DNA from: Candidatus Woesearchaeota archaeon
GTDB taxonomy: Archaea; Nanobdellota; Nanobdellia; Woesearchaeales; JACJVV01
Assembly: GCA_047603135.1 (NCBI GenBank)
Contig: JBLKOW010000001.1
Location: 1-34,774, forward strand
DNA: 34,774 nucleotides
Reading direction: 5' to 3'
Notes under the pieces: generated by a model
Database searches by the model: none
What the model was told of the DNA's origin: nothing
The model's input: only the letters and a program-made list of their open reading frames with translations
Shown: piece by piece, positions 7,146-34,773 of the stretch
Layout: each line of letters begins with the position of its first letter
Numbering within the stretch: position 1 is the first letter of the stretch
Program-made: the position numbers and the translations under genes

Positions 7146-7236
7146 TCGAATGTAAAAAGTCAACATGCACGGCGAATTTATGTGTTTCTTACTAAGAAAT
7201 ACATCGCCTCGATGGGCAAAGTAGACTTTCTACTTA
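7146..7236 (-). repeat. Structured interspersed repeat, short form, copy 5 (inverted orientation)
   Basis: Its reverse complement aligns with 32388-32480 and with the 3' module of the long copies (GGCAAAG...GGCGAT-hairpin-TTCGCCGTGCA...GACTTTTTAC). CAAAAAT occurs on both flanks (7139-7145 and 7237-7243). Confidence 0.85.
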
Positions 7237-14266: not shown

Positions 14267-16486
14267 ATGACAAACGAAAATAGATTACAAGGATCAATTA
14301 AAAGCATTGCAGGGCCACTAGTAGTTGGAAGAGACATGCAAGGCGTAAAAATGTATGATTTAGTTAAGGTTGGAAAACTAAAGCTAATGGGTGAAGTAAT
14401 TCAACTGCGAAATGACACTGCATATATTCAAGTCTATGAAGATACATCTGGTCTTACTACTGGTGAAGAAATTGTCTCAACAGATATGCCATTAAGTGTT
14501 GAATTAGGTCCTGGATTACTTGGAAGCATTCTTGACGGTGTTGGACGCCCGCTTCCTATTATTGCAGAGAAAACAGGAACATACATTGCTCGTGGTGTGG
14601 AAGCTCCCACGATAAATAAAGAAAGACGATATGAATTCTCTCCTTCTATTAAAGAGGGTGATGATGTTGTTCCTGGTCAAGTTCTAGGTTCAGTAAAAGA
14701 AACCGACCTCATTAAACATTACATAATGGTTCCTGTTGGTGTTGTTGGTCGTGTTAAAGACATAATTCCTGGTACATGTACTGCAAAGGATGTTATTGCA
14801 CGAATCCAAACTGCAGGAGGCACTCATGAAATTACATTAGCACAGTGGTGGCCGGTACGTCGCTCACGTCCTGTAAAGAAAAAGCTTGACCCTGCAGAAA
14901 TGCTTGTATCAGGACAGCGTGTTTTCGATACTTTCTTTCCGTTAGTTAAAGGTGGTACTGCAGCTATTCCTGGTCCTTTTGGTTCAGGGAAAACAGTATC
15001 TCAGCATCAGCTTGCAAAATGGGTTAATGCTGATATTGTTGTCTACATTGGTTGTGGTGAGCGTGGAAATGAGATGACTGAAGTACTCAAAGAATTTCCT
15101 GAATTAATAGATCCTAAGACTGGTAAACCACTTATGGAGCGAACAGTTCTTATCGCAAACACAAGTAACATGCCAGTTGCTGCGCGTGAAGCGTCTATTT
15201 ATACAGGGATTACTATTGCAGAATATTATCGTGACATGGGATATGATGTAGCATTAATGGCAGATTCAACATCGCGCTGGGCTGAAGCACTTCGTGAAAT
15301 GTCCTCTCGTCTTGAAGAAATGCCTGGTGAGGAAGGATATCCTGCATACTTATCTTCTCGTCTTGCACAATTTTATGAGCGTGCAGGTAAAGTGGTAACT
15401 CTTAATAATAAAAATTCATCATTATCGATTATTGGTGCAGTTTCTCCTCCTGGTGGAGACTTTTCAGAACCAGTCACACAAAATACCTTGCGTATTACCA
15501 AAGTATTCTGGGGGCTTGATGCAAAACTAGCATACAAGAGACACTTCCCTTCAATTAATTGGTTGACTTCATACTCGCTTTATAGCGATAAATTACATAG
15601 CTTTTACGAAAAAGTTGATGCAGACTTTCCTGATTTAATAAACACGGCAATGTCATTGCTTCAAAAAGAATCCGAACTACAAGAAATTGTTCAGTTAGTT
15701 GGTCCAGATGCACTTCCTGATAATGATCGGCTCGTGCTCCATACCGCGCGAAAGCTACGTGAAGATTATTTACAACAGCACGCTTTTCATGATATTGACT
15801 CCTATTGTTCACTTGAAAAGCAACATATGATGCTTAAAGTAATTATTGATTATCATAATGTACTCAATAGCTTTATCAAAAAAGGATCTAAGTTTGTAAC
15901 ACTTGTTGATGAAAAGATTGATGAGCAAATTGCACGAATTAAATATCAAAAAGATAGTAAAAAATATGTTGCTAATATTTATGATATGATTGAGAAAACA
16001 CGTCCAAAGTCTGTAAGTGAGCGAAAAGATGAAACAGATAAAGAAGGACGAGATGCACAGAAAAAAGCAGATGAGAAAAAAGAGCAAAACGCGCAAAATG
16101 AATCTCGAAGTAACACTCGCAAAGAAACTAAAAAAGAAGTCGCCACAGAAACTAAAAAAGAATCGACTCGAGCGCACTCAGCGTATTTATCAAAAGAATC
16201 TGCTAAAACATCTACTCGTAAGAGTGTAAGTAGTAATAGTAGAAAAAGTGCTGCTAAAAAAGCAAAAAATAAGCTACGTAAAAATCCAAAAAAACGTACA
16301 AAAGTAAAAAAAAGTATGGCACAAAACGCTTCTAAAAAAGTAGCAAAAAAGCCAGTAAAGCGCTCAAATTCGCAAAAACCATCAAAATCGCAAAGAAGCA
16401 ATTCAAAACGTAAAACTGCAGGAAAAAGTTCTGCACGAAAGCGACCACTGTCGCGCAAGCCTAAATCAAGGAAGGTGAAATCATGA
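14267..16486 (+). CDS. atpA: A-type ATP synthase catalytic subunit A with an unusual Lys/Ser/Arg-rich C-terminal extension
   Basis: It has the Walker A motif [17 protein letters not shown], and [16 protein letters not shown]. The homologous core ends near residue 575-585. About 160 low-complexity basic residues follow before the stop, which overlaps the atpB start (ATGA). Confidence 0.95.
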
Positions 16487-18885: not shown

Positions 18886-19623
18886 ATGAAAAATGAATTA
18901 GGTAGTTTAGTTAGTTCTGGAATAGACCCTGAGAAAGCAGAGGCACGTGAATTGTGGAAACGCGGGCATTTGAATGGTTCGTATTCAAACCAAGATCCAG
19001 GATATAAGTTTGCGCGTCGTGCTGAAAAACATGGTTCACCACGAACATATGTTCCTCCAGCAGAAAGACAAATACCTGTGGAAGATGGACATGGAAACTC
19101 TACGAGTGGAAATAAGTTTGATGAACAGTGGTCAGGAGATGATAAAGTATCGCTTGATGAAGTTTTATCAGCAGTTGATTCTGAATCGGTATTTAACGCA
19201 CGTGTTCAAGCAGTGTATGAGGGCGGTGTTCTAGATATCGGTTATGATGCAGATTCACGCGTTATGGAAGTATATGGTGATGCACCTCTTTACAACTTAG
19301 CACTCTTTTTAGGAGATAGTAAAAATGTTTCAGAGGTAGTTGTGCATCATAATGGTGAAGAAAATCGTCTTTCATATGATAAAAAACGCGATGTAATCAG
19401 TCTTAATGGAATGGAAATGTTTTGTCCTCATGATCCAGATAAGCCAATTAACTCAAGACAAGTACATGCAGTTCAGATACCTGGAATGGAAAGAGTAAGT
19501 CTTGAGGCACTTGAAGGAAATGGTCATTATCATCCAGAGATTGAATTCGATGATTTATTGGCAAAACCTGAGACGATGGAACGGCCAAGCACTGATGAAA
19601 TGACTCGTGTGTATAGAGATTAA
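18886..19623 (+). CDS. Hypothetical protein
   Basis: 245-aa ORF, acidic, with no recognisable motif. Its stop codon lies inside the TTAATTAG direct repeat that borders repeat copy 1. Confidence 0.55.
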   Translation: MKNELGSLVSSGIDPEKAEARELWKRGHLNGSYSNQDPGYKFARRAEKHGSPRTYVPPAERQIPVEDGHGNSTSGNKFDEQWSGDDKVSLDEVLSAVDSESVFNARVQAVYEGGVLDIGYDADSRVMEVYGDAPLYNLALFLGDSKNVSEVVVHHNGEENRLSYDKKRDVISLNGMEMFCPHDPDKPINSRQVHAVQIPGMERVSLEALEGNGHYHPEIEFDDLLAKPETMERPSTDEMTRVYRD

Positions 19624-19627
19624 TTAG

Positions 19628-19868
19628 TAAAATCTGCTTTTTCCACCAGTGTGTTTTTACATGCCTGGCTACGTCTGTGCATGTTCACGCGCGGCATAGT
19701 GGAAAAAGCAGGGTCTGAGAAAACCGACCAAGCCGTAGGCGAGCATGCCTCCAGTCTCTGACTGGTGGTGTCGGTTTTCGATTGACAAATCGACTTTGCC
19801 CTTTGAGGCGATGTGTTTCTTGTCAAAGAAACACATAAGTTCGCCGTGCAAGTTGATTTTTTACGTGC
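19628..19868 (+). repeat. Structured interspersed repeat, long form, copy 1 (complete)
   Basis: It aligns with 29074-29310 and 30706-30995, and its 3' module aligns with 32388-32480 and complement 7146-7236. It has multiple internal helices, including a perfect 13-bp pairing (19634-19646 with 19699-19711). It is flanked by the exact 8-bp direct repeat TTAATTAG. Confidence 0.9.
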
Positions 19869-28881: not shown

Positions 28882-28903
28882 AGTTATATCTATTAAATTA
28901 TTG

Positions 28904-28965
28904 AAAATCTCGCATTCGAGATTTGAATGGGGATTCAAATACCCCTCACTTTAGTGCGAGATTTT
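28904..28965 (+). repeat. Mini stem-loop element 1 (62 nt, AAAATC...GATTTT termini)
   Basis: The 11-bp closing helix pairs 28904-28914 with 28955-28965. Two mutually exclusive local hairpins form at 28905-28924 and 28921-28940. The GGGG loop (28929-28932) is complementary to CCCC (28942-28945). Confidence 0.7.
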
Positions 28966-28972
28966 TAATTCC

Positions 28973-29053
28973 AAAAATCCGACTCAATCGTGAGTCTGTA
29001 ATACCCCAACATTTATGTTGGGGATAGGACGAACAACCAAGAGTCGGATTTTT
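28973..29053 (+). repeat. Mini stem-loop element 2 (81 nt, AAAAATCCGAC...GTCGGATTTTT termini)
   Basis: The perfect 13-bp closing helix pairs 28973-28985 with 29041-29053. It has an apical 8-bp hairpin (29004-29011 with 29016-29023). The closing helix resembles the AAATCGAC/GTTGATTT helix of the main family. Confidence 0.7.
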
Positions 29054-29073
29054 GTTATTTGCAATCTAAGTAA

Positions 29074-29310
29074 GTAAAATCTGCTTTTTTCACCTGTGTT
29101 TTTTTACATGCCTGGCTACGTCTGTGCATGTTCACTGGTGGTGTAGTAGAAAAAGCAGGGTCTGAGAATACCGACTGAGCCGCATACAAGCATGCCATCA
29201 GTCGGGTGAAAATCAAAGACTTTCAGCGTACCAGAAATTTCATTTCTGTGTATATGACTGGTGGTGTAGGTTTTCGATTGACAGTTTACTTTGCCAAGTG
29301 GAGTTTTTTC
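29074..29310 (+). repeat. Structured interspersed repeat, long form, copy 2 (3' hairpin module missing)
   Basis: It aligns with copy 1 and copy 3 from GTAAAATCTGC to CTTTGCCAAGTGGAG and then diverges. It carries the 52-nt expansion arm also present in copy 3. Confidence 0.85.
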
Positions 29311-29398
29311 AACCAGCTTAAAATATAAGTGCTTCTGAAATCGTACTTTTTATATTAAAAAAGAAACAAAGTATTAATATTTCTTCTTCAAAAGAGAA

Positions 29399-29408
29399 AT
29401 ATTTATAA
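29399..29408 (+). promoter_or_regulatory. TATA-like box for the AAA+ ATPase gene (leaderless spacing)
   Basis: TATTTATAAA is centred about 28 nt upstream of ATG 29432. Confidence 0.35.
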
Positions 29409-29431
29409 ACTTCCTGTATTTTATTGTGTAT

Positions 29432-30709
29432 ATGTATGATAAAAAAAGGCTTGCACTCTATTTTGAAGATACTAAAGTAGTTGTCAAAGACTCTATTGAG
29501 AGAAATCTTAAGCTACCTTCTTCAAAGAGTATTGTTTCATTAATTGGTGCACGAAGAACTGGCAAAACATATCTTTTTTATCAAAAGATTGCTACGCTTC
29601 CAAAAGAACAAGTTATTTTATTAGAATTTGAAAATCCGGTTTTATCGAGGGTAACTGTTGATGAATTTGGTGAGATTATCTCGCAGTATGTGTCACTTTA
29701 TAAAGCGTCATATGATAAAAAGTTATATATTTTTATTGATGAGCCACAAGTACTCCATAACTGGGAGATTGGTATACGATATTTGCATGATACTTTTGAT
29801 TGTGAATTGTATATAACTGGGTCTTCATCGAAACTTTTAAGTAAAGAAATTGCAACATCACTTAGGGGAAGAAATATTTCATTTTATTTATATCCTCTTT
29901 CTTTTGTAGAATTTTTAAGATTTAAAGGAGAGGGTATTATGTTGCCATTAGATACAAAGAAAAAAGGTTTTGTCCTAAATCTATTTAGGGAGTTTTTATT
30001 GTATGGTGGTTTTCCACAAGTTGTTCTTGCTGAATCGGAATTAGAAAAGAAACAAATACTTAAAAATTATTATGACCTTGTTGTATTCAAAGATATAGTT
30101 GACAGGTATAATTTAAAAAACACGAATCTTATTAGGTATCTTATAGAATATGTTGTATCAGCAAATACAAAAGTAATTAGTATTCATAAATTATTCAAAA
30201 CATTGCAATCACAGGGTTTTAAAGTTGCAAAAAATACTCTTTATGACTATTATAGTATTCTTGCTGATGTTTTTTTCATAGTGTCGCTAAAAAAACATTC
30301 ATTTTCAGTTCGAAGGCAAGAATTATCTTTTGAAAAGCCTTTTCTTATTGATGTTGGTTATATGTCCTTATTCTCGATGGAAGATTATGGAAAAAGACTT
30401 GAAAATGTTGTGTGTGTTGAGTTACAAAGGAGGCGTGGTGTACATGATTCCATTTTCTTTACATCTGACAATTCTTTTGAATGCGACTTCCTCATAAAAG
30501 AAGGTGCAAAAATAACGAAAGCAATCCAAGTCTGCTACGAACTAAATGATGATAATGAAAAACGTGAAATTGCAGGGTTAGTAGAAGCATGCAAGACTTA
30601 TAAACTCAAAGAAGGTTTGCTTCTTACCTACGACCATGAAGACTCATTTCAAAAAGATGGCATTACCATTGAAGTAAAACCTGTCTGGAAATGGTTATTA
30701 AGTACGTAA
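29432..30709 (+). CDS. AAA+ superfamily ATPase (COG1373 / DUF4143-type)
   Basis: It has Walker A GARRTGKT and Walker B LYIFIDEPQ, with the size and C-terminal region typical of archaeal DUF4143 ATPases. The ORF track starts at GTG 29426. ATG 29432 fits the TATA spacing. Confidence 0.8.
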   Translation: MYDKKRLALYFEDTKVVVKDSIERNLKLPSSKSIVSLIGARRTGKTYLFYQKIATLPKEQVILLEFENPVLSRVTVDEFGEIISQYVSLYKASYDKKLYIFIDEPQVLHNWEIGIRYLHDTFDCELYITGSSSKLLSKEIATSLRGRNISFYLYPLSFVEFLRFKGEGIMLPLDTKKKGFVLNLFREFLLYGGFPQVVLAESELEKKQILKNYYDLVVFKDIVDRYNLKNTNLIRYLIEYVVSANTKVISIHKLFKTLQSQGFKVAKNTLYDYYSILADVFFIVSLKKHSFSVRRQELSFEKPFLIDVGYMSLFSMEDYGKRLENVVCVELQRRRGVHDSIFFTSDNSFECDFLIKEGAKITKAIQVCYELNDDNEKREIAGLVEACKTYKLKEGLLLTYDHEDSFQKDGITIEVKPVWKWLLST

Positions 30710-30995
30710 AATCTGTTAATACACTAGAGTGTTTTTACATGCCAGACAACATTTGTGCATGTTCACTGGTGGTGTAGTGGAAAAAAGCAGGGTTTGATAA
30801 AACCGACCGAGCAGTGGGAGAGCATGCCACCAATCCGATGAAAATAAAAGATTTTCAGCGTACCAGAAATTTCATTTCTGTGTGTATGGCTGGTGATGTC
30901 GATTTTCGATTGACAGTCTACTTTGCCAAGTGAGGCGATATTTCTTAATTTCACTAAAAAAATGTACTCGCCGTGCAAGTTGACTTTTTACGTTC
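30706..30995 (+). repeat. Structured interspersed repeat, long form, copy 3 (complete, 5' part diverged)
   Basis: It aligns with copies 1 and 2 and includes both the 51-nt expansion arm and the 3' hairpin module. The ATPase stop codon TAA (30707-30709) lies inside its first nucleotides. Confidence 0.9.
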
Positions 30996-32362: not shown

Positions 32363-32387
32363 TGCTTATTATGAAATGTACTATACA

Positions 32388-32480
32388 CAGCGAGTAAAAA
32401 GTTTGCTTTGCCTTTCGAGGCGATATGTTTCTTGATAAAGAAACATATAAATTCGCCGTGCAAGCTTGACTTTTTACGTG
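32388..32480 (+). repeat. Structured interspersed repeat, short form, copy 4
   Basis: GCGAGTAAAAAGT...ACTTTTTACGTG inverted termini enclose the conserved CTTTGCC-GAGGCGAT-hairpin-TTCGCCGTGCAAG module. CTATACA occurs on both flanks (32381-32387 and 32481-32487). Confidence 0.9.
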
Positions 32481-32551
32481 CTATACATAAAAGATAAATA
32501 GTACATATTATAAAATTGGCTTTATACTGAGATTAAAAGTTTTTATTAAAC

Positions 32552-34668: not shown

Positions 34669-34773
34669 GCCCTTGTGGTGTAGTCCGGCCAATCATTTTG
34701 GATTTTCGTGGCGAAGAATCAAACTTCTCGCCGAAAACATCCAAAGACTCGGGTTCGAATCCCGGCGAGGGCA
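34669..34773 (+). tRNA. tRNA-Glu(UUC) with a 30-nt intron at the canonical 37/38 position
   Basis: Hand fold: acceptor GCCCTTG/CGAGGGC; D arm GGTGTAGTCCGGCCAATCAT, typical of archaeal tRNA-Glu; anticodon stem TTGGA/TCCAA with loop TTTTCG|intron|A (anticodon TTC at 34705-34707); 4-nt variable loop; T arm TCGGG-TTCGAAT-CCCGG; discriminator A. The intron (34709-34738) contains its own GGCG...CGCC hairpin. CCA is not encoded within the window. Confidence 0.85.

What the first reader, a model, noticed from the sequence alone, without database searches (positions are those of the whole stretch)
29074..30995. AAA+ (DUF4143-type) ATPase gene bracketed by two direct long copies, the upstream one truncated
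Copy 2 lacks the whole 3' hairpin module; similarity stops at CTTTGCCAAGTGGAG, about 29303-29310. The ATPase gene follows with its own promoter-like box. Copy 3 begins inside the ATPase stop codon (acGTAAaatc). Copy 3 in turn has lost the 5' strand of the 13-bp helix seen in copies 1 and 2: CTGTTAATACAC replaces CTGCTTTTTCCAC. The pattern fits either insertion of the ATPase block into or next to a pre-existing element, or recombination between two elements. ORF 18886-19623 also ends inside the border of copy 1. Gene ends and element 5' ends therefore coincide repeatedly.
Basis: seen in the sequence. Interest (0 to 1): 0.65.

Follow-up and report, generated by a model that had tools for sequence, protein, structure and literature searches.

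The report
Defence-type ATPase gene between two decayed repeats
An intact, single-copy ATPase gene of a candidate antiviral type sits between two worn-out copies of a small hairpin-forming repeat that litters this uncultured archaeon's intergenic DNA; nothing ties the gene to the repeats, so the arrangement is most likely ordinary.

Summary
ORF 29432-30709 is an intact AAA_14+DUF4143 ATPase and a strong match to PADLOC candidate defence family PDC-S01. Two direct copies of a repeat flank it. Copy 2 (29074-29300) loses family similarity 12 nt into the 3' hairpin module. Copy 3 (30706-30991) is full length and starts at the ATPase stop codon, but its 13-bp helix and apical hairpin are degraded.

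The repeat is a mosaic. Its core is an ~85-nt hairpin module with strong compensatory changes, at roughly 25-40 copies per genome, also present in one related MAG. In long copies a ~160-210-nt two-hairpin block (about 10-18 copies) splits the module's 5' arm. Copy 1 is transcribed together with the upstream ORF.

I found no causal link to the ATPase:
- Copies 2 and 3 are only 72-90% identical by segment.
- The ATPase is at single-copy depth in eight metagenomes, with no ATPase-free or excised form.
- The three closest homologue loci carry no repeat.
- Twelve repeat loci in the related MAG carry no ATPase.

Most likely these are two independently placed, decaying REP/BIME- or MITE-like elements in 3' intergenic spaces. 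Integration through repeat homology is not excluded. Interest is low to moderate.

The parts
28900..28969 (+). Hairpin element hpA (arms ATTGAAAATCTCGCA / TGCGAGATTTTTAAT). It belongs to a different, very abundant repeat family and is the first unit of the repeat pile-up between the ZIP gene and the ATPase gene.
   Evidence: Inverted repeat I6. Metagenome word depth is 380-500x against a baseline of about 9x.
28972..29062 (+). Hairpin element hpB (13-bp basal stem AAAAATCCGACTC / GAGTCGGATTTTT with an inner hairpin CCCCAACAT..ATGTTGGGG). A second abundant family.
   Evidence: Inverted repeat I2. Depth is 600-740x against about 9x.
29074..29300 (+). Long copy 2. It holds the 5' edge GTAAAA, hairpin unit H1 (13-bp helix with one mismatch and one wobble), hairpin unit H2 with the 49-nt loop insertion (29204-29252), and the first 12 nt of the 3' hairpin module (CTTTGCCAAGTG). 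Family similarity ends at 29300.
   Evidence: The tail is not significantly module-like.
29301..29431 (+). AT-rich spacer (about 21% GC). It contains T runs, a TATA-like box TTTATAAA (29402-29409) and a 13-nt inverted repeat around it (29372-29384 / 29395-29407). This is the likely promoter of the ATPase gene, giving a leaderless or short-leader mRNA.
   Evidence: Sequence reading, GC content and inverted repeat I19. Promoter function is inferred from general knowledge of archaeal TATA-box promoters.
29432..30709 (+). Intact 425-aa AAA_14 + DUF4143 ATPase (an alternative GTG start lies at 29426). It is a PDC-S01-type candidate single-gene defence protein. It is single copy and present in every metagenome that holds the locus.
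   Evidence: Pfam, PADLOC PDC-S01 at E 3.6e-96, full-length alignment with invariant Walker A and Walker B residues, depth equal to the flanks and literature PMC12988326 and PMC3424549.
30706..30991 (+). Long copy 3. It is full length (5' edge, H1, H2 with the 49-nt insertion at 30836-30884, 3' hairpin module ending GACTTTTTAC). The 5' strand of the H1 helix and the apical stem of the 3' module are degraded. Its first bases supply the ATPase stop codon (30707-30709).
   Evidence: fold z only -2.4. The alignment scores 72.6 bits, with broken apical pairs marked.
19627..19864 (+). Long copy 1, the well-preserved reference copy. It has a perfect 13-bp H1 helix, H2 without the insertion, and an intact 3' module. 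It is transcribed contiguously with the 3' end of ORF 18886-19623.
   Evidence: Fold of -98.5 kcal/mol, z -7.5. RNA contigs 19572-19785 and 19521-19694. Covariance model R1 score 89.9 bits.
32394..32477 (+). Short copy, consisting of the 85-nt hairpin module alone. It lies 30 nt after the MazG-like gene, between convergent genes. It is absent from the syntenic site of the related MAG.
   Evidence: R1 score 95.4 bits. L018 3017-3103 has no element.
7152..7233 (-). Short copy (hairpin module alone) in the divergent intergenic region between the L44e and DoxX genes.
   Evidence: R1 score 94.5 bits, gene assignments and position table.

Best explanation
The ATPase gene is an ordinary, intact chromosomal gene. 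It is single copy, has its own TATA-box promoter, and belongs to the PDC-S01 candidate defence family (AAA_14 ATPase fused to a DUF4143 / PD-(D/E)XK-type domain). It happens to lie between two separately placed, decaying members of a dispersed mosaic family of palindromic intergenic repeats. That family is REP/BIME-like or MITE-like and occupies the short spaces after stop codons in this DPANN-like archaeon.

The family's core is an ~85-nt imperfect hairpin module ending in a T5-6 run on either strand. In long copies a ~160-210-nt block of two hairpin units (H1, H2) splits the 5' basal arm of that module between GTAAAA and (A)GTC. Copy 2 lies downstream of the ZIP transporter gene, behind two hairpins of other families, and has lost its 3' module. 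Copy 3 lies downstream of the ATPase gene.

Shown:
- the anatomy, copy numbers and covariation of the hairpin module;
- transcription of copy 1 together with its upstream ORF;
- the single-copy, fixed state of the ATPase;
- the absence of an ATPase-repeat association at the other loci examined.

Inferred:
- the elements are, or were, moved in trans by an enzyme encoded elsewhere in the genome;
- once in place they act as 3'-UTR hairpins with an oligo-T stop, that is, terminators or 3'-end stabilisers for the upstream gene;
- genes end at their 5' edge because that edge is TAA-rich and the genome is compact.
For: Family anatomy and abundance:
- Three long and two short copies lie in the window.
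- Depth at 80% or higher likeness is 100-180x for the 5' block and 240-420x for the 3' module, against about 9x for unique DNA. Other copies end at ..CGATTGACA without the module, carry internal deletions, or carry the 49-nt insertion. About 10 short copies start TAAGTAAAAAGTCT.
- All 12 copies in the related MAG are short modules.

Hairpin conservation:
- 96.7% of cells are paired and 11 of 32 pairs show changes on both sides. None of 500 shuffles reached this, and slid controls pair only 39-51%.

Mobility or turnover:
- The short copy after the MazG-like gene is absent from the syntenic site in the MAG.

Placement:
- 8 of 12 MAG copies lie 14-69 nt after a stop codon, in either orientation.

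Transcription:
- Metatranscriptome contigs join the end of ORF 18886-19623 to copy 1.

No special tie to the ATPase:
- Copies 2 and 3 are 72-90% identical by segment, about as far from each other as from copy 1.
- The ATPase is at flank depth with no deletion joint in eight DNA runs.
- GC is 30.8% and GC3 21.8%, against window means of 35.8% and 23.5%.
- The closest homologues (60, 59 and 50% identity) have no repeats nearby.
- No ATPase lies within about 96 kb around the 12 MAG copies.
- The ATPase C-terminus is at the family-normal position.
- The window holds no transposase, integrase or TnpB.
Against: - With roughly 10-18 long copies per genome, two in direct orientation 1.6 kb apart around one HGT-prone gene is somewhat unexpected. 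My rough Poisson estimate gives about a 0.1-0.2 chance somewhere in a ~1 Mb genome. Genome size is assumed, not known.
- Copies 2 and 3 share the 49-nt insertion and the AAGTG junction variant that copy 1 lacks. Copy 2 is cut exactly where the ATPase's AT-rich promoter region begins.
- The mobilising enzyme, any transposition event, and terminator activity are all unobserved.
- The RNA evidence comes from unstranded assembled contigs at low depth, and DNA carry-over cannot be excluded.
- The source genome is not available, so the other copies were seen only as depth and loose ends, not as sequences.
Confidence: 0.58

Rival explanations
1. The ATPase was integrated through repeat homology. A DNA segment carrying the ATPase gene plus a partial long copy (or a segment flanked by family members in a donor strain) recombined with a resident long copy. 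This left a truncated hybrid copy upstream and a full hybrid copy downstream. On this view the repeats act as portable homology that captures an accessory defence gene.
For: - The two copies are in direct orientation with 1632-nt start-to-start spacing.
- They share the 49-nt insertion and junction variant.
- Copy 2 is truncated right at the start of the ATPase's promoter region.
- H1 of copy 2 is closer to copy 1 (88%) than H1 of copy 3 is (80%), as a crossover between H1 and H2 could give.
- PDC-S01 genes have moved between domains many times (PMC12988326). The best homologues are spread over DPANN, CPR and Elusimicrobia.
Against: - The copies are only about 83% identical overall, and their longest shared exact word is 31 nt. 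Any such event is therefore old, or the partner copies were already diverged.
- No integrase or recombinase is nearby.
- Eight metagenomes show no empty or excised allele.
- The ATPase's GC3 is like its neighbours'.
- At least one other copy has the 49-nt insertion.
- The segment-identity pattern rests on three sequences and carries no statistical weight.
Confidence: 0.2
2. The long element is chiefly a functional structured RNA, a 3'-UTR or sRNA module of about 240 nt, kept by selection at several genes. Copies 2 and 3 are pseudo-copies. The link to gene ends reflects RNA function (stability, processing or regulation of the upstream mRNA), not mobility.
For: - Copy 1 folds far better than shuffles (z -7.5).
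- It is covered by metatranscriptome contigs contiguous with the upstream ORF.
- The 49-nt insertion sits in a hairpin loop and forms small hairpins itself, as expansions in structured RNAs do.
- The hairpin module keeps invariant unpaired motifs (CTTTGCC, GAGGCGAT, TCGCCGTGCA) across two species while its stems covary.
- The model scores 90-95 bits on one strand and 20-40 on the other, so the element is asymmetric.
Against: - There is no Rfam match.
- Short modules occur in both orientations relative to the neighbouring genes. That fits a DNA-level or orientation-free role better than one specific RNA.
- G-U counts (6) and A-C counts (5) in the stems give no strand signal.
- Many copies are truncated, deleted or mosaic, which is typical of selfish repeats.
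- Copies 2 and 3 fold poorly (z -1.9 and -2.4).
- The family was seen in only two genomes out of 185,579 species representatives, and in no JGI metagenome or viral contig.
Confidence: 0.15
3. There is no biology in the bracket. Two family members fell on either side of a gene by chance in a repeat-dense region, and copy 2 lost its 3' part through an unrelated small deletion.
For: - The same 35-kb window holds five family members plus two other abundant hairpin families.
- Truncated and deleted copies are common elsewhere in the genome.
- The rough chance estimate for such a pair is not small (0.1-0.2, my calculation with an assumed genome size).
Against: This is largely the null form of the best explanation and is not separable from it with present data. 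The shared subfamily features of copies 2 and 3 are a mild argument against pure chance.
Confidence: 0.07

Closest known systems
REP sequences and their mosaics (BIMEs) of bacteria, mobilised by RAYT (IS200/IS605-like Y1) transposases
   Same: - Multi-copy extragenic imperfect palindromes, mostly just downstream of coding regions.
- Found singly or combined with other hairpin units into mosaics.
- Stems show compensatory changes between subfamilies.
- Often transcribed as part of the upstream mRNA, and thought to act as terminators or 3' stabilisers (PMC3733652).
   Different: - The module is about 85 nt, against 20-40 nt for REPs.
- The terminal (G/A)TA(G/A) is base-paired with the 3' end. 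It is not a free GTAG tag, and it reads GTAG in only 3 of 14 short copies.
- Copy number is tens, not hundreds.
- The host is an archaeon; that paper names only bacterial phyla as hosts.
- No RAYT gene could be looked for, because the genome is not available.
MITEs (for example Correia/NEMIS, ERIC, RUP-type elements)
   Same: - Small non-autonomous intergenic repeats whose two ends are inverted repeats and which fold into one long hairpin.
- Presence or absence differs between relatives.
- Nested and truncated derivatives exist.
- They can supply terminators, and stop codons at their ends.
   Different: - No target-site duplication is visible at the 14 short copies.
- No related autonomous IS is known.
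- Central sequence motifs are invariant between two species, which is unusual for a purely selfish MITE.
IS200/IS605-derived palindrome-associated elements (PATEs). This comparison applies to the H1-H2 block of the long copies.
   Same: - A subterminal hairpin lies at each end.
- There are no terminal inverted repeats and no target duplication.
- Every copy seen begins right after the same TAAAA. The block sits after TAAAA inside the short module, and some copies end at ..CGATTGACA with unrelated DNA behind.
   Different: This is a resemblance only. No TnpA or TnpB was found in the window. The flanks of other copies are known only as 30-nt loose-end consensus sequences. Cleavage-site and guide pairing was not tested.
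PDC-S01 (PADLOC phage-defence candidate; COG1373, AAA_14 + DUF4143). This comparison applies to the gene itself.
   Same: - Full-length match to the PDC-S01 model at E 3.6e-96.
- Both Pfam domains are present.
- Walker A GARRTGKT and Walker B FIDEPQ are conserved.
- The family is described as an ATPase fused to a PD-(D/E)XK domain, is abundant in archaea, and has been transferred between domains many times (PMC12988326). DUF4143 is listed as a PD-(D/E)XK family (PMC3424549).
   Different: - Defence activity is unproven for the family as a whole and untested here.
- The gene is not in a recognisable defence island; its neighbours are a ZIP transporter, a DegT-like protein and a MazG-like protein.
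- Where I recall many family members having E-x-K, this clade has an invariant Q-V-C. That recollection was not checked.
Integrated elements bounded by attL/attR direct repeats
   Same: A gene block is bounded by direct repeats, one of which is a partial copy.
   Different: - The repeats are 230 nt long at about 83% identity, not short and identical.
- They belong to a family with ten or more dispersed copies.
- There is no integrase.
- Eight metagenomes show no excised or empty form.

Membership tests
AAA_14 + DUF4143 ATPase (COG1373) / PADLOC PDC-S01 | N-terminal AAA_14 P-loop domain with Walker A and Walker B motifs | tested here: met
   PF13173 at E 2.2e-30, residues 34-164. G39, G44, K45, T46 and D103, E104 are invariant across 10 homologues.
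AAA_14 + DUF4143 ATPase (COG1373) / PADLOC PDC-S01 | C-terminal DUF4143 domain (PD-(D/E)XK superfamily) | tested here: met
   PF13635 at E 4.6e-12, residues 222-371, above the gathering score. The superfamily assignment comes from PMC3424549. Catalytic residues were not verified. The motif E350-x-D352 ... Q366-V-C368 is invariant in this clade.
AAA_14 + DUF4143 ATPase (COG1373) / PADLOC PDC-S01 | Match to the PDC-S01 profile over the full length | tested here: met
   PDLC04787 at E 3.6e-96, residues 23-424 on profile positions 18-408 of 412.
AAA_14 + DUF4143 ATPase (COG1373) / PADLOC PDC-S01 | Protection against viruses | not testable with these tools
REP / BIME | Short imperfect palindrome, many copies, extragenic, mostly downstream of genes | tested here: met
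   Depth indicates about 25-40 module copies. All 17 copies examined are intergenic or at a gene's last bases, and 8 of 12 MAG copies lie 14-69 nt after a stop codon. The module is about 85 nt, longer than the usual 20-40 nt.
REP / BIME | Unpaired GTAG (or CGTC) tag at one end | tested here: not met
   The end reads (G/A)TA(G/A) and is GTAG in 3 of 14 short copies. It is paired with the 3' (C/T)TA(C/T).
REP / BIME | Cognate RAYT (Y1 transposase) gene flanked by the repeats | not testable with these tools
   Only 35 kb of the source genome and 96 kb of the related MAG are at hand, and none was seen there.
REP / BIME | Mosaic arrays of different hairpin units | tested here: met
   28900-29300 holds hpA, hpB, H1, H2 and a module stub. 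Long copies are H1 + H2 + module. Other mosaics and deletion forms appear in the metagenome.
MITE | Terminal inverted repeats | tested here: met
   GTAAAAAGTCAGCTTTGC pairs with GCAAGCAGACTTTTTAC. This is helix 1, 16 pairs, 97% of cells paired.
MITE | Target-site duplication flanking each copy | tested here: not met
   Inspection of the flanks of 14 short copies shows no direct repeat.
MITE | Related autonomous IS with the same ends | not testable with these tools
   The complete genome is not available.
IS200/IS605-derived PATE (H1-H2 block) | Insertion 3' of a fixed short target, subterminal hairpins, no TSD, TnpA in the genome | tested here: inconclusive
   All copies seen start after TAAAA and carry hairpins near both ends. 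TnpA could not be searched for, and the other copies were seen only as loose ends.
Integrated element with att duplication | Near-identical direct repeats, an integrase, and detectable empty or excised forms | tested here: not met
   Identity is 72-90% by segment. No integrase is present. Eight DNA runs show no joint.
Any Rfam RNA family | Covariance-model match | tested here: not met
   Nothing at gathering score on the elements. Only chance-level hits at E above 2.9.

The most novel reading that the evidence does not exclude
The long copies are not junk. The H1-H2 block would be an IS200/IS605-like single-strand mobile unit nested in a conserved REP-like hairpin. The resulting dispersed 230-nt homologies would serve in this DPANN-like archaeon as landing pads, through which accessory defence genes such as this PDC-S01 ATPase are captured and exchanged between strains. 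Alternatively, the intact long copy is a new class of structured 3'-UTR RNA specific to this lineage.
Probability: 0.12. Interest if true: 0.6.

Novelty: new member of a known kind. Interest (0 to 1): 0.3.

Why it matters
If the plain reading is right, this is useful annotation but nothing more. It identifies an undescribed family of mosaic palindromic repeats in an uncultured, DPANN-like archaeal lineage. Its core is an 85-nt hairpin with clear covariation, and long forms carry a 160-210-nt block. It also shows that a tidy-looking gene bracketed by repeats need not be a mobile cassette.

The family could still matter in two ways. First, REP/BIME-like systems are documented almost only in bacteria, so an archaeal counterpart with a findable mobilising enzyme would widen that picture. 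Second, small-genome archaea are thought to be repeat-poor, yet here three hairpin families reach tens of copies each.

The ATPase belongs to PDC-S01, one of the commonest unvalidated defence candidates in archaea. Any clue to how such genes move would be of interest, but this locus does not provide one.

Tried and rejected
- **Known RNA family.** Rfam at gathering and at E up to 10 found nothing on the elements, and ARAGORN found no tRNA. A tRNA-like look of TGGTGGTGTAGTGG and GGTTTTCGATTG is superficial, since neither tool supports it.
- **Source genome or close relatives.** The exact-protein look-up returned only 0.9-1.7-kb Logan unitigs broken at repeat words. The one genome with the family (MAG CAZOOV01) is a different species: 60-63% amino-acid identity in three neighbouring genes, and synteny ends upstream of the MazG-like gene. 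The 275-aa neighbour has no homologue above 49% identity. An empty-site test was therefore impossible.
- **Wider distribution.** Patterns for the 5' block and for the module found nothing in JGI metagenome contigs or IMG/VR viral contigs.
- **Decayed but complete 3' module in copy 2.** There is a collinear ATAAGT ... ACTTTTTA, but it is not significant (p 0.07-0.12).
- **Recent duplication of copies 2 and 3.** Rejected on 72-90% segment identity.
- **Circular or excised ATPase unit.** The 1.66-kb unitigs are explained by one shared 31-mer in copies 2 and 3. Depth equals the flanks and DNA shows no joint. The apparent 29099-to-30765 joint in an RNA contig comes from another, 90-95%-alike copy.
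- **Recent HGT signal.** GC is 1.5 sd low, GC3 is normal, so this is not an outlier.
- **Coding potential of the elements.** The internal ORFs are not conserved in frame between copies. Searching the 68-aa ORF of copy 1 to fish out other copies found nothing.
- **H1 and H2 as duplicates of each other.** Significant only in copy 2, as a 26-nt match that includes the end of the 49-nt insertion. Not significant in copy 1.
- **Strand of function from G-U versus A-C counts.** 6 against 5, so uninformative.
Full report
**What is in the sequence.**
Three stretches of about 230-290 nt are clearly related and lie in direct orientation:
- Copy 1 is at 19627-19864.
- Copy 2 is at 29074-29300.
- Copy 3 is at 30706-30991.

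Between copies 2 and 3 lies ORF 29432-30709 (425 aa from the ATG). It matches Pfam AAA_14 (E 2.2e-30) and DUF4143 (E 4.6e-12). Copy 2 is identical to copy 3 through CTTTGCCAAGTG (ending at 29300) and then diverges. A 128-nt spacer of 21% GC follows. It carries a TATA-like TTTATAAA at 29402-29409, 22 nt before the ATG. Copy 3 starts with GTAAAATCTG at 30706, so the ATPase stop codon (30707-30709) is made of the element's first bases. In copy 3, CTG-TTAATACAC stands where copies 1 and 2 have the 5' strand of a 13-bp helix.

**Is copy 2 really truncated?**
I built a covariance model of the 3' hairpin module from 16 copies and searched the window with filters off.
- The four true modules score 72.6-95.4 bits.
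- The region 29271-29363 scores 17.7 bits (E about 0.07), and that includes 30 nt already known to be homologous.
- The tail alone (29304-29365) aligns to real modules no better than dinucleotide shuffles do (p 0.07-0.12).

The module is absent or decayed beyond recognition. A collinear ATAAGT ... ACTTTTTA is a faint hint of decay rather than clean deletion.

**What the repeat is.**
The family has two layers.

The core is an ~85-nt imperfect hairpin of the form GTAAAAAGTCAGCTTTGCC .. GAGGCGAT [stem-loop] .. TCGCCGTGCAAGCAGACTTTTTAC.
- It occurs alone at 32394-32477 (+) and 7152-7233 (-).
- A pattern scan of 185,579 species genomes found it 12 times in one MAG and nowhere else (CAZOOV01, labelled uncultured Methanosarcinales archaeon).
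- Across 16 copies, 96.7% of cells form pairs and 11 of 32 pairs show changes on both sides. No shuffle out of 500 reaches this, and slid controls pair only 39-51%.
- The unpaired motifs CTTTGCC, GAGGCGAT and TCGCCGTGCA are invariant in both species.

In the long copies a block of about 160-210 nt splits the 5' basal arm of this hairpin, between GTAAAA and (A)GTC. The block consists of two hairpin units:
- H1 is the 13-bp helix CTGCTTTTTCCAC / GTGGAAAAAGCAG around an inner ACATGC..GCATGT hairpin.
- H2 is AAAACCGAC / GTCGGTTTT around CCAGTC..GACTGG.

Copies 2 and 3 carry a further 49-nt insertion in the H2 loop.

**Abundance and variants in the source population.**
Four DNA metagenomes from lake water hold the locus at about 9x. 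At 80% or higher likeness the 5' block reaches 100-180x and the 3' module 240-420x. That corresponds to about 10-18 and 25-40 copies per genome. The same output shows several variants:
- about ten short copies starting TAAGTAAAAAGTCT;
- copies that end at ..CGATTGACA with unrelated DNA behind, so the block also occurs without the module;
- copies with internal deletions of 75-108 nt;
- two or three contigs per run with the 49-nt insertion, which points to at least one further carrier besides copies 2 and 3.

The two hairpins just upstream of copy 2 (28900-28969 and 28972-29062) belong to other families at 380-740x. The 550-nt gap between the ZIP transporter gene and the ATPase gene is thus a pile-up of at least four repeat units. 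This is a mosaic, as in bacterial BIMEs.

**Placement, turnover and transcription.**
- In the MAG, 8 of 12 copies lie 14-69 nt after a stop codon, in either orientation. The rest sit between divergent genes or have no ORF on one side.
- The MAG locus L018 is syntenic with the window from the MazG-like gene to the Na+/H+ exchanger (60-63% amino-acid identity). It has no element after the MazG-like gene, where the window has one. Copies are therefore gained or lost between relatives.
- Metatranscriptomes from the same lake contain contigs 19572-19785 (no mismatches) and 19521-19694. These join the 3' end of ORF 18886-19623 to copy 1, so copy 1 is transcribed as that gene's 3' UTR.
- These RNA data are unstranded assembled contigs at low depth. 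No RNA contig specific to the ATPase, copy 2 or copy 3 was found.
- Copy 1 folds far better than shuffles (z -7.5). Copies 2 and 3 do not (z -1.9 and -2.4), which fits decay.
- There is no Rfam match.

**The gene.**
- The protein matches PADLOC's PDC-S01 model over its full length (E 3.6e-96).
- PDC-S01 is a candidate single-gene defence system. It is described as an ATPase fused to a PD-(D/E)XK domain, is very common in archaea, and has been transferred between domains many times (PMC12988326). DUF4143 is listed as a PD-(D/E)XK family (PMC3424549).
- The protein is full length, with invariant Walker A and Walker B residues. It ends two residues after the conserved PVWKWLL, where its homologues end. 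Copy 3 has therefore not cut it short.
- The closest homologues are only 60, 59 and 50% identical. The next ones (40-49%) include sequences named as Pacearchaeota, Woesearchaeota, Nanoarchaeota, Diapherotrites, Elusimicrobia and Moranbacteria.
- There is no PDB relative by sequence.

**Is the gene tied to the repeats?**
Five tests speak against a tie:
1. The three closest homologue loci (L021-L023) contain no family member.
2. The ~96 kb around the 12 MAG copies contain no ATPase homologue.
3. Copies 2 and 3 are 72-90% identical by segment and about as far from each other as from copy 1. Apart from the shared insertion and junction variant, they are not a recent duplicate pair.
4. The ATPase has the depth of its flanks in eight DNA runs from two studies, with no joint that would show an ATPase-free or excised form. 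The 1.66-kb unitigs that carry it simply end at the one 31-mer that copies 2 and 3 share.
5. Its GC (30.8%) is 1.5 sd below the window mean and its GC3 (21.8%) is average.

The window is plain chromosome and encodes no transposase, integrase or TnpB. It carries the A-type ATP synthase operon, aIF2-alpha, L44e and DnaK/DnaJ/GrpE.

**Why gene ends meet element ends.**
- The 5' edge of the family is TAA-rich. Copy 2 has TAAGTAAGTAAAA, with TAA in all three frames. Copies 1 and 3 have stops in two frames (read).
- Intergenic spacers in this genome are short, many under 100 nt.
- An element that settles right after a gene, or clips its last codons, will therefore mark the gene's end.
- Only two of the three long copies show this, at offsets of -4 and +3 nt. 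In the MAG the stop codons lie 14-69 nt away, so it is not a family rule.

**Most likely history and mechanism.**
I judge it most likely (about 0.58) that copy 2 and copy 3 are separate members of the family. Copy 2 belongs to the repeat pile-up after the ZIP gene. Copy 3 lies after the ATPase gene. Both are decaying, and the ATPase is a resident accessory gene with its own promoter.

Three steps are inferred, not shown:
- the elements are moved in trans by an enzyme encoded elsewhere;
- in place, the hairpin with its T5-6 run (present on either strand because the module's ends are inverted repeats) stops or stabilises transcripts;
- copy 2's 3' end was lost by deletion, possibly when the ATPase and its promoter arrived.

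The main rival (about 0.2) is that the ATPase was brought in by recombination through repeat homology. In its favour are the direct orientation, the shared subfamily features, the truncation point, and the gene's known tendency to move. Against it are the divergence of the copies and the lack of any polymorphism.

A structured-RNA reading of the intact long copy (about 0.15) is not excluded. It could hold alongside either history.

**Host.**
Best hits of the 275-aa neighbour (PF27296) are almost all Woesearchaeota or Nanoarchaeota, at 49% identity or less. The ATPase's homologues point the same way. The source therefore looks DPANN-like, despite the Methanosarcinales label on the only other genome that carries the family. 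I did not test this with a marker-gene phylogeny.

**Comparison with known systems.**
- The family works like REP/BIME or MITE repeats but is not a demonstrated member of either. The end tetranucleotide is paired and rarely reads GTAG, there is no target duplication, and no cognate transposase could be sought.
- The H1-H2 block resembles IS200/IS605-derived palindrome-associated elements in having subterminal hairpins and a constant TAAAA on its left. This is a lead only.
- The gene is a clear member of PDC-S01.

**Verdict.**
The proposed causal link is not supported, though it is not excluded. This is a new member of a known kind, of low to moderate interest.

Noticed in passing
window 28900-29062: Two hairpin elements directly upstream of copy 2 reach 380-740x metagenome depth against about 9x. 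That suggests roughly 40-80 copies each, more than the family in the finding. Both begin with AAAATC and end with GATTTT, as H1 does on its 5' side. They were not found in the 96 kb of the related MAG.
   Followed up: partly
window 32363-32551 versus L018 3017-3103: The short hairpin module after the MazG-like gene is missing from the syntenic intergenic spacer of the related MAG. This is a presence/absence difference between species.
   Followed up: yes
window 14267-16486: The A-type ATP synthase subunit A ORF is 739 aa. Its Pfam domains end at residue 528, leaving a C-terminal extension of about 210 aa with no domain hit.
   Followed up: no
window 34669-34773: Rfam finds a 105-nt tRNA (45 bits) that ARAGORN misses. 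It is presumably a tRNA gene with an intron, which fits an archaeal source. It overlaps the annotated start region of the Na+/H+ exchanger ORF on the other strand.
   Followed up: no
L009-L020 (MAG CAZOOV01): The only genome sharing the repeat family is labelled uncultured Methanosarcinales archaeon. Yet the best named hits of two window proteins are Woesearchaeota, Nanoarchaeota and other DPANN. The label or the binning may be wrong.
   Followed up: partly
window 29372-29407: A 13-nt inverted repeat (TATTAATATTTCT / AGAAATATTTATA) overlaps the TATA-like box of the ATPase gene. It could be an operator for a regulator.
   Followed up: no
window 30479-30535 (ATPase residues 350-368): The motif E-C-D-F ... 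I-Q-V-C is invariant in the ten closest homologues. From memory, many DUF4143 proteins have E-x-D ... E-V-K here. If so, this clade may lack the canonical PD-(D/E)XK Glu and Lys. This was not checked against a structure or the HMM.
   Followed up: no
window 29120-29145 and 29244-29269: Inside copy 2, the H1 3' side (TCTGTGCATGTTCACTGGTGGTGTAG) and the end of the 49-nt insertion plus the H2 3' side (TCTGTGTATATGACTGGTGGTGTAG) match at 22 of 25 aligned bases (0 of 1000 shuffles scored as high). This suggests that the insertion arose by copying between hairpin units.
   Followed up: partly
window 29286 and 29303: The population varies here. T>C at 29286 and an extra T in the T run after 29303 appear in three of the first four DNA runs, and again in one or two of four further runs.
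   Followed up: no
L022 9684-9881: Upstream of the 50%-identical ATPase homologue P0004 lies a fragment encoding the last ~70 residues of another DUF4143 ATPase (35% identity). These genes therefore can pile up and decay side by side in other genomes.
   Followed up: no
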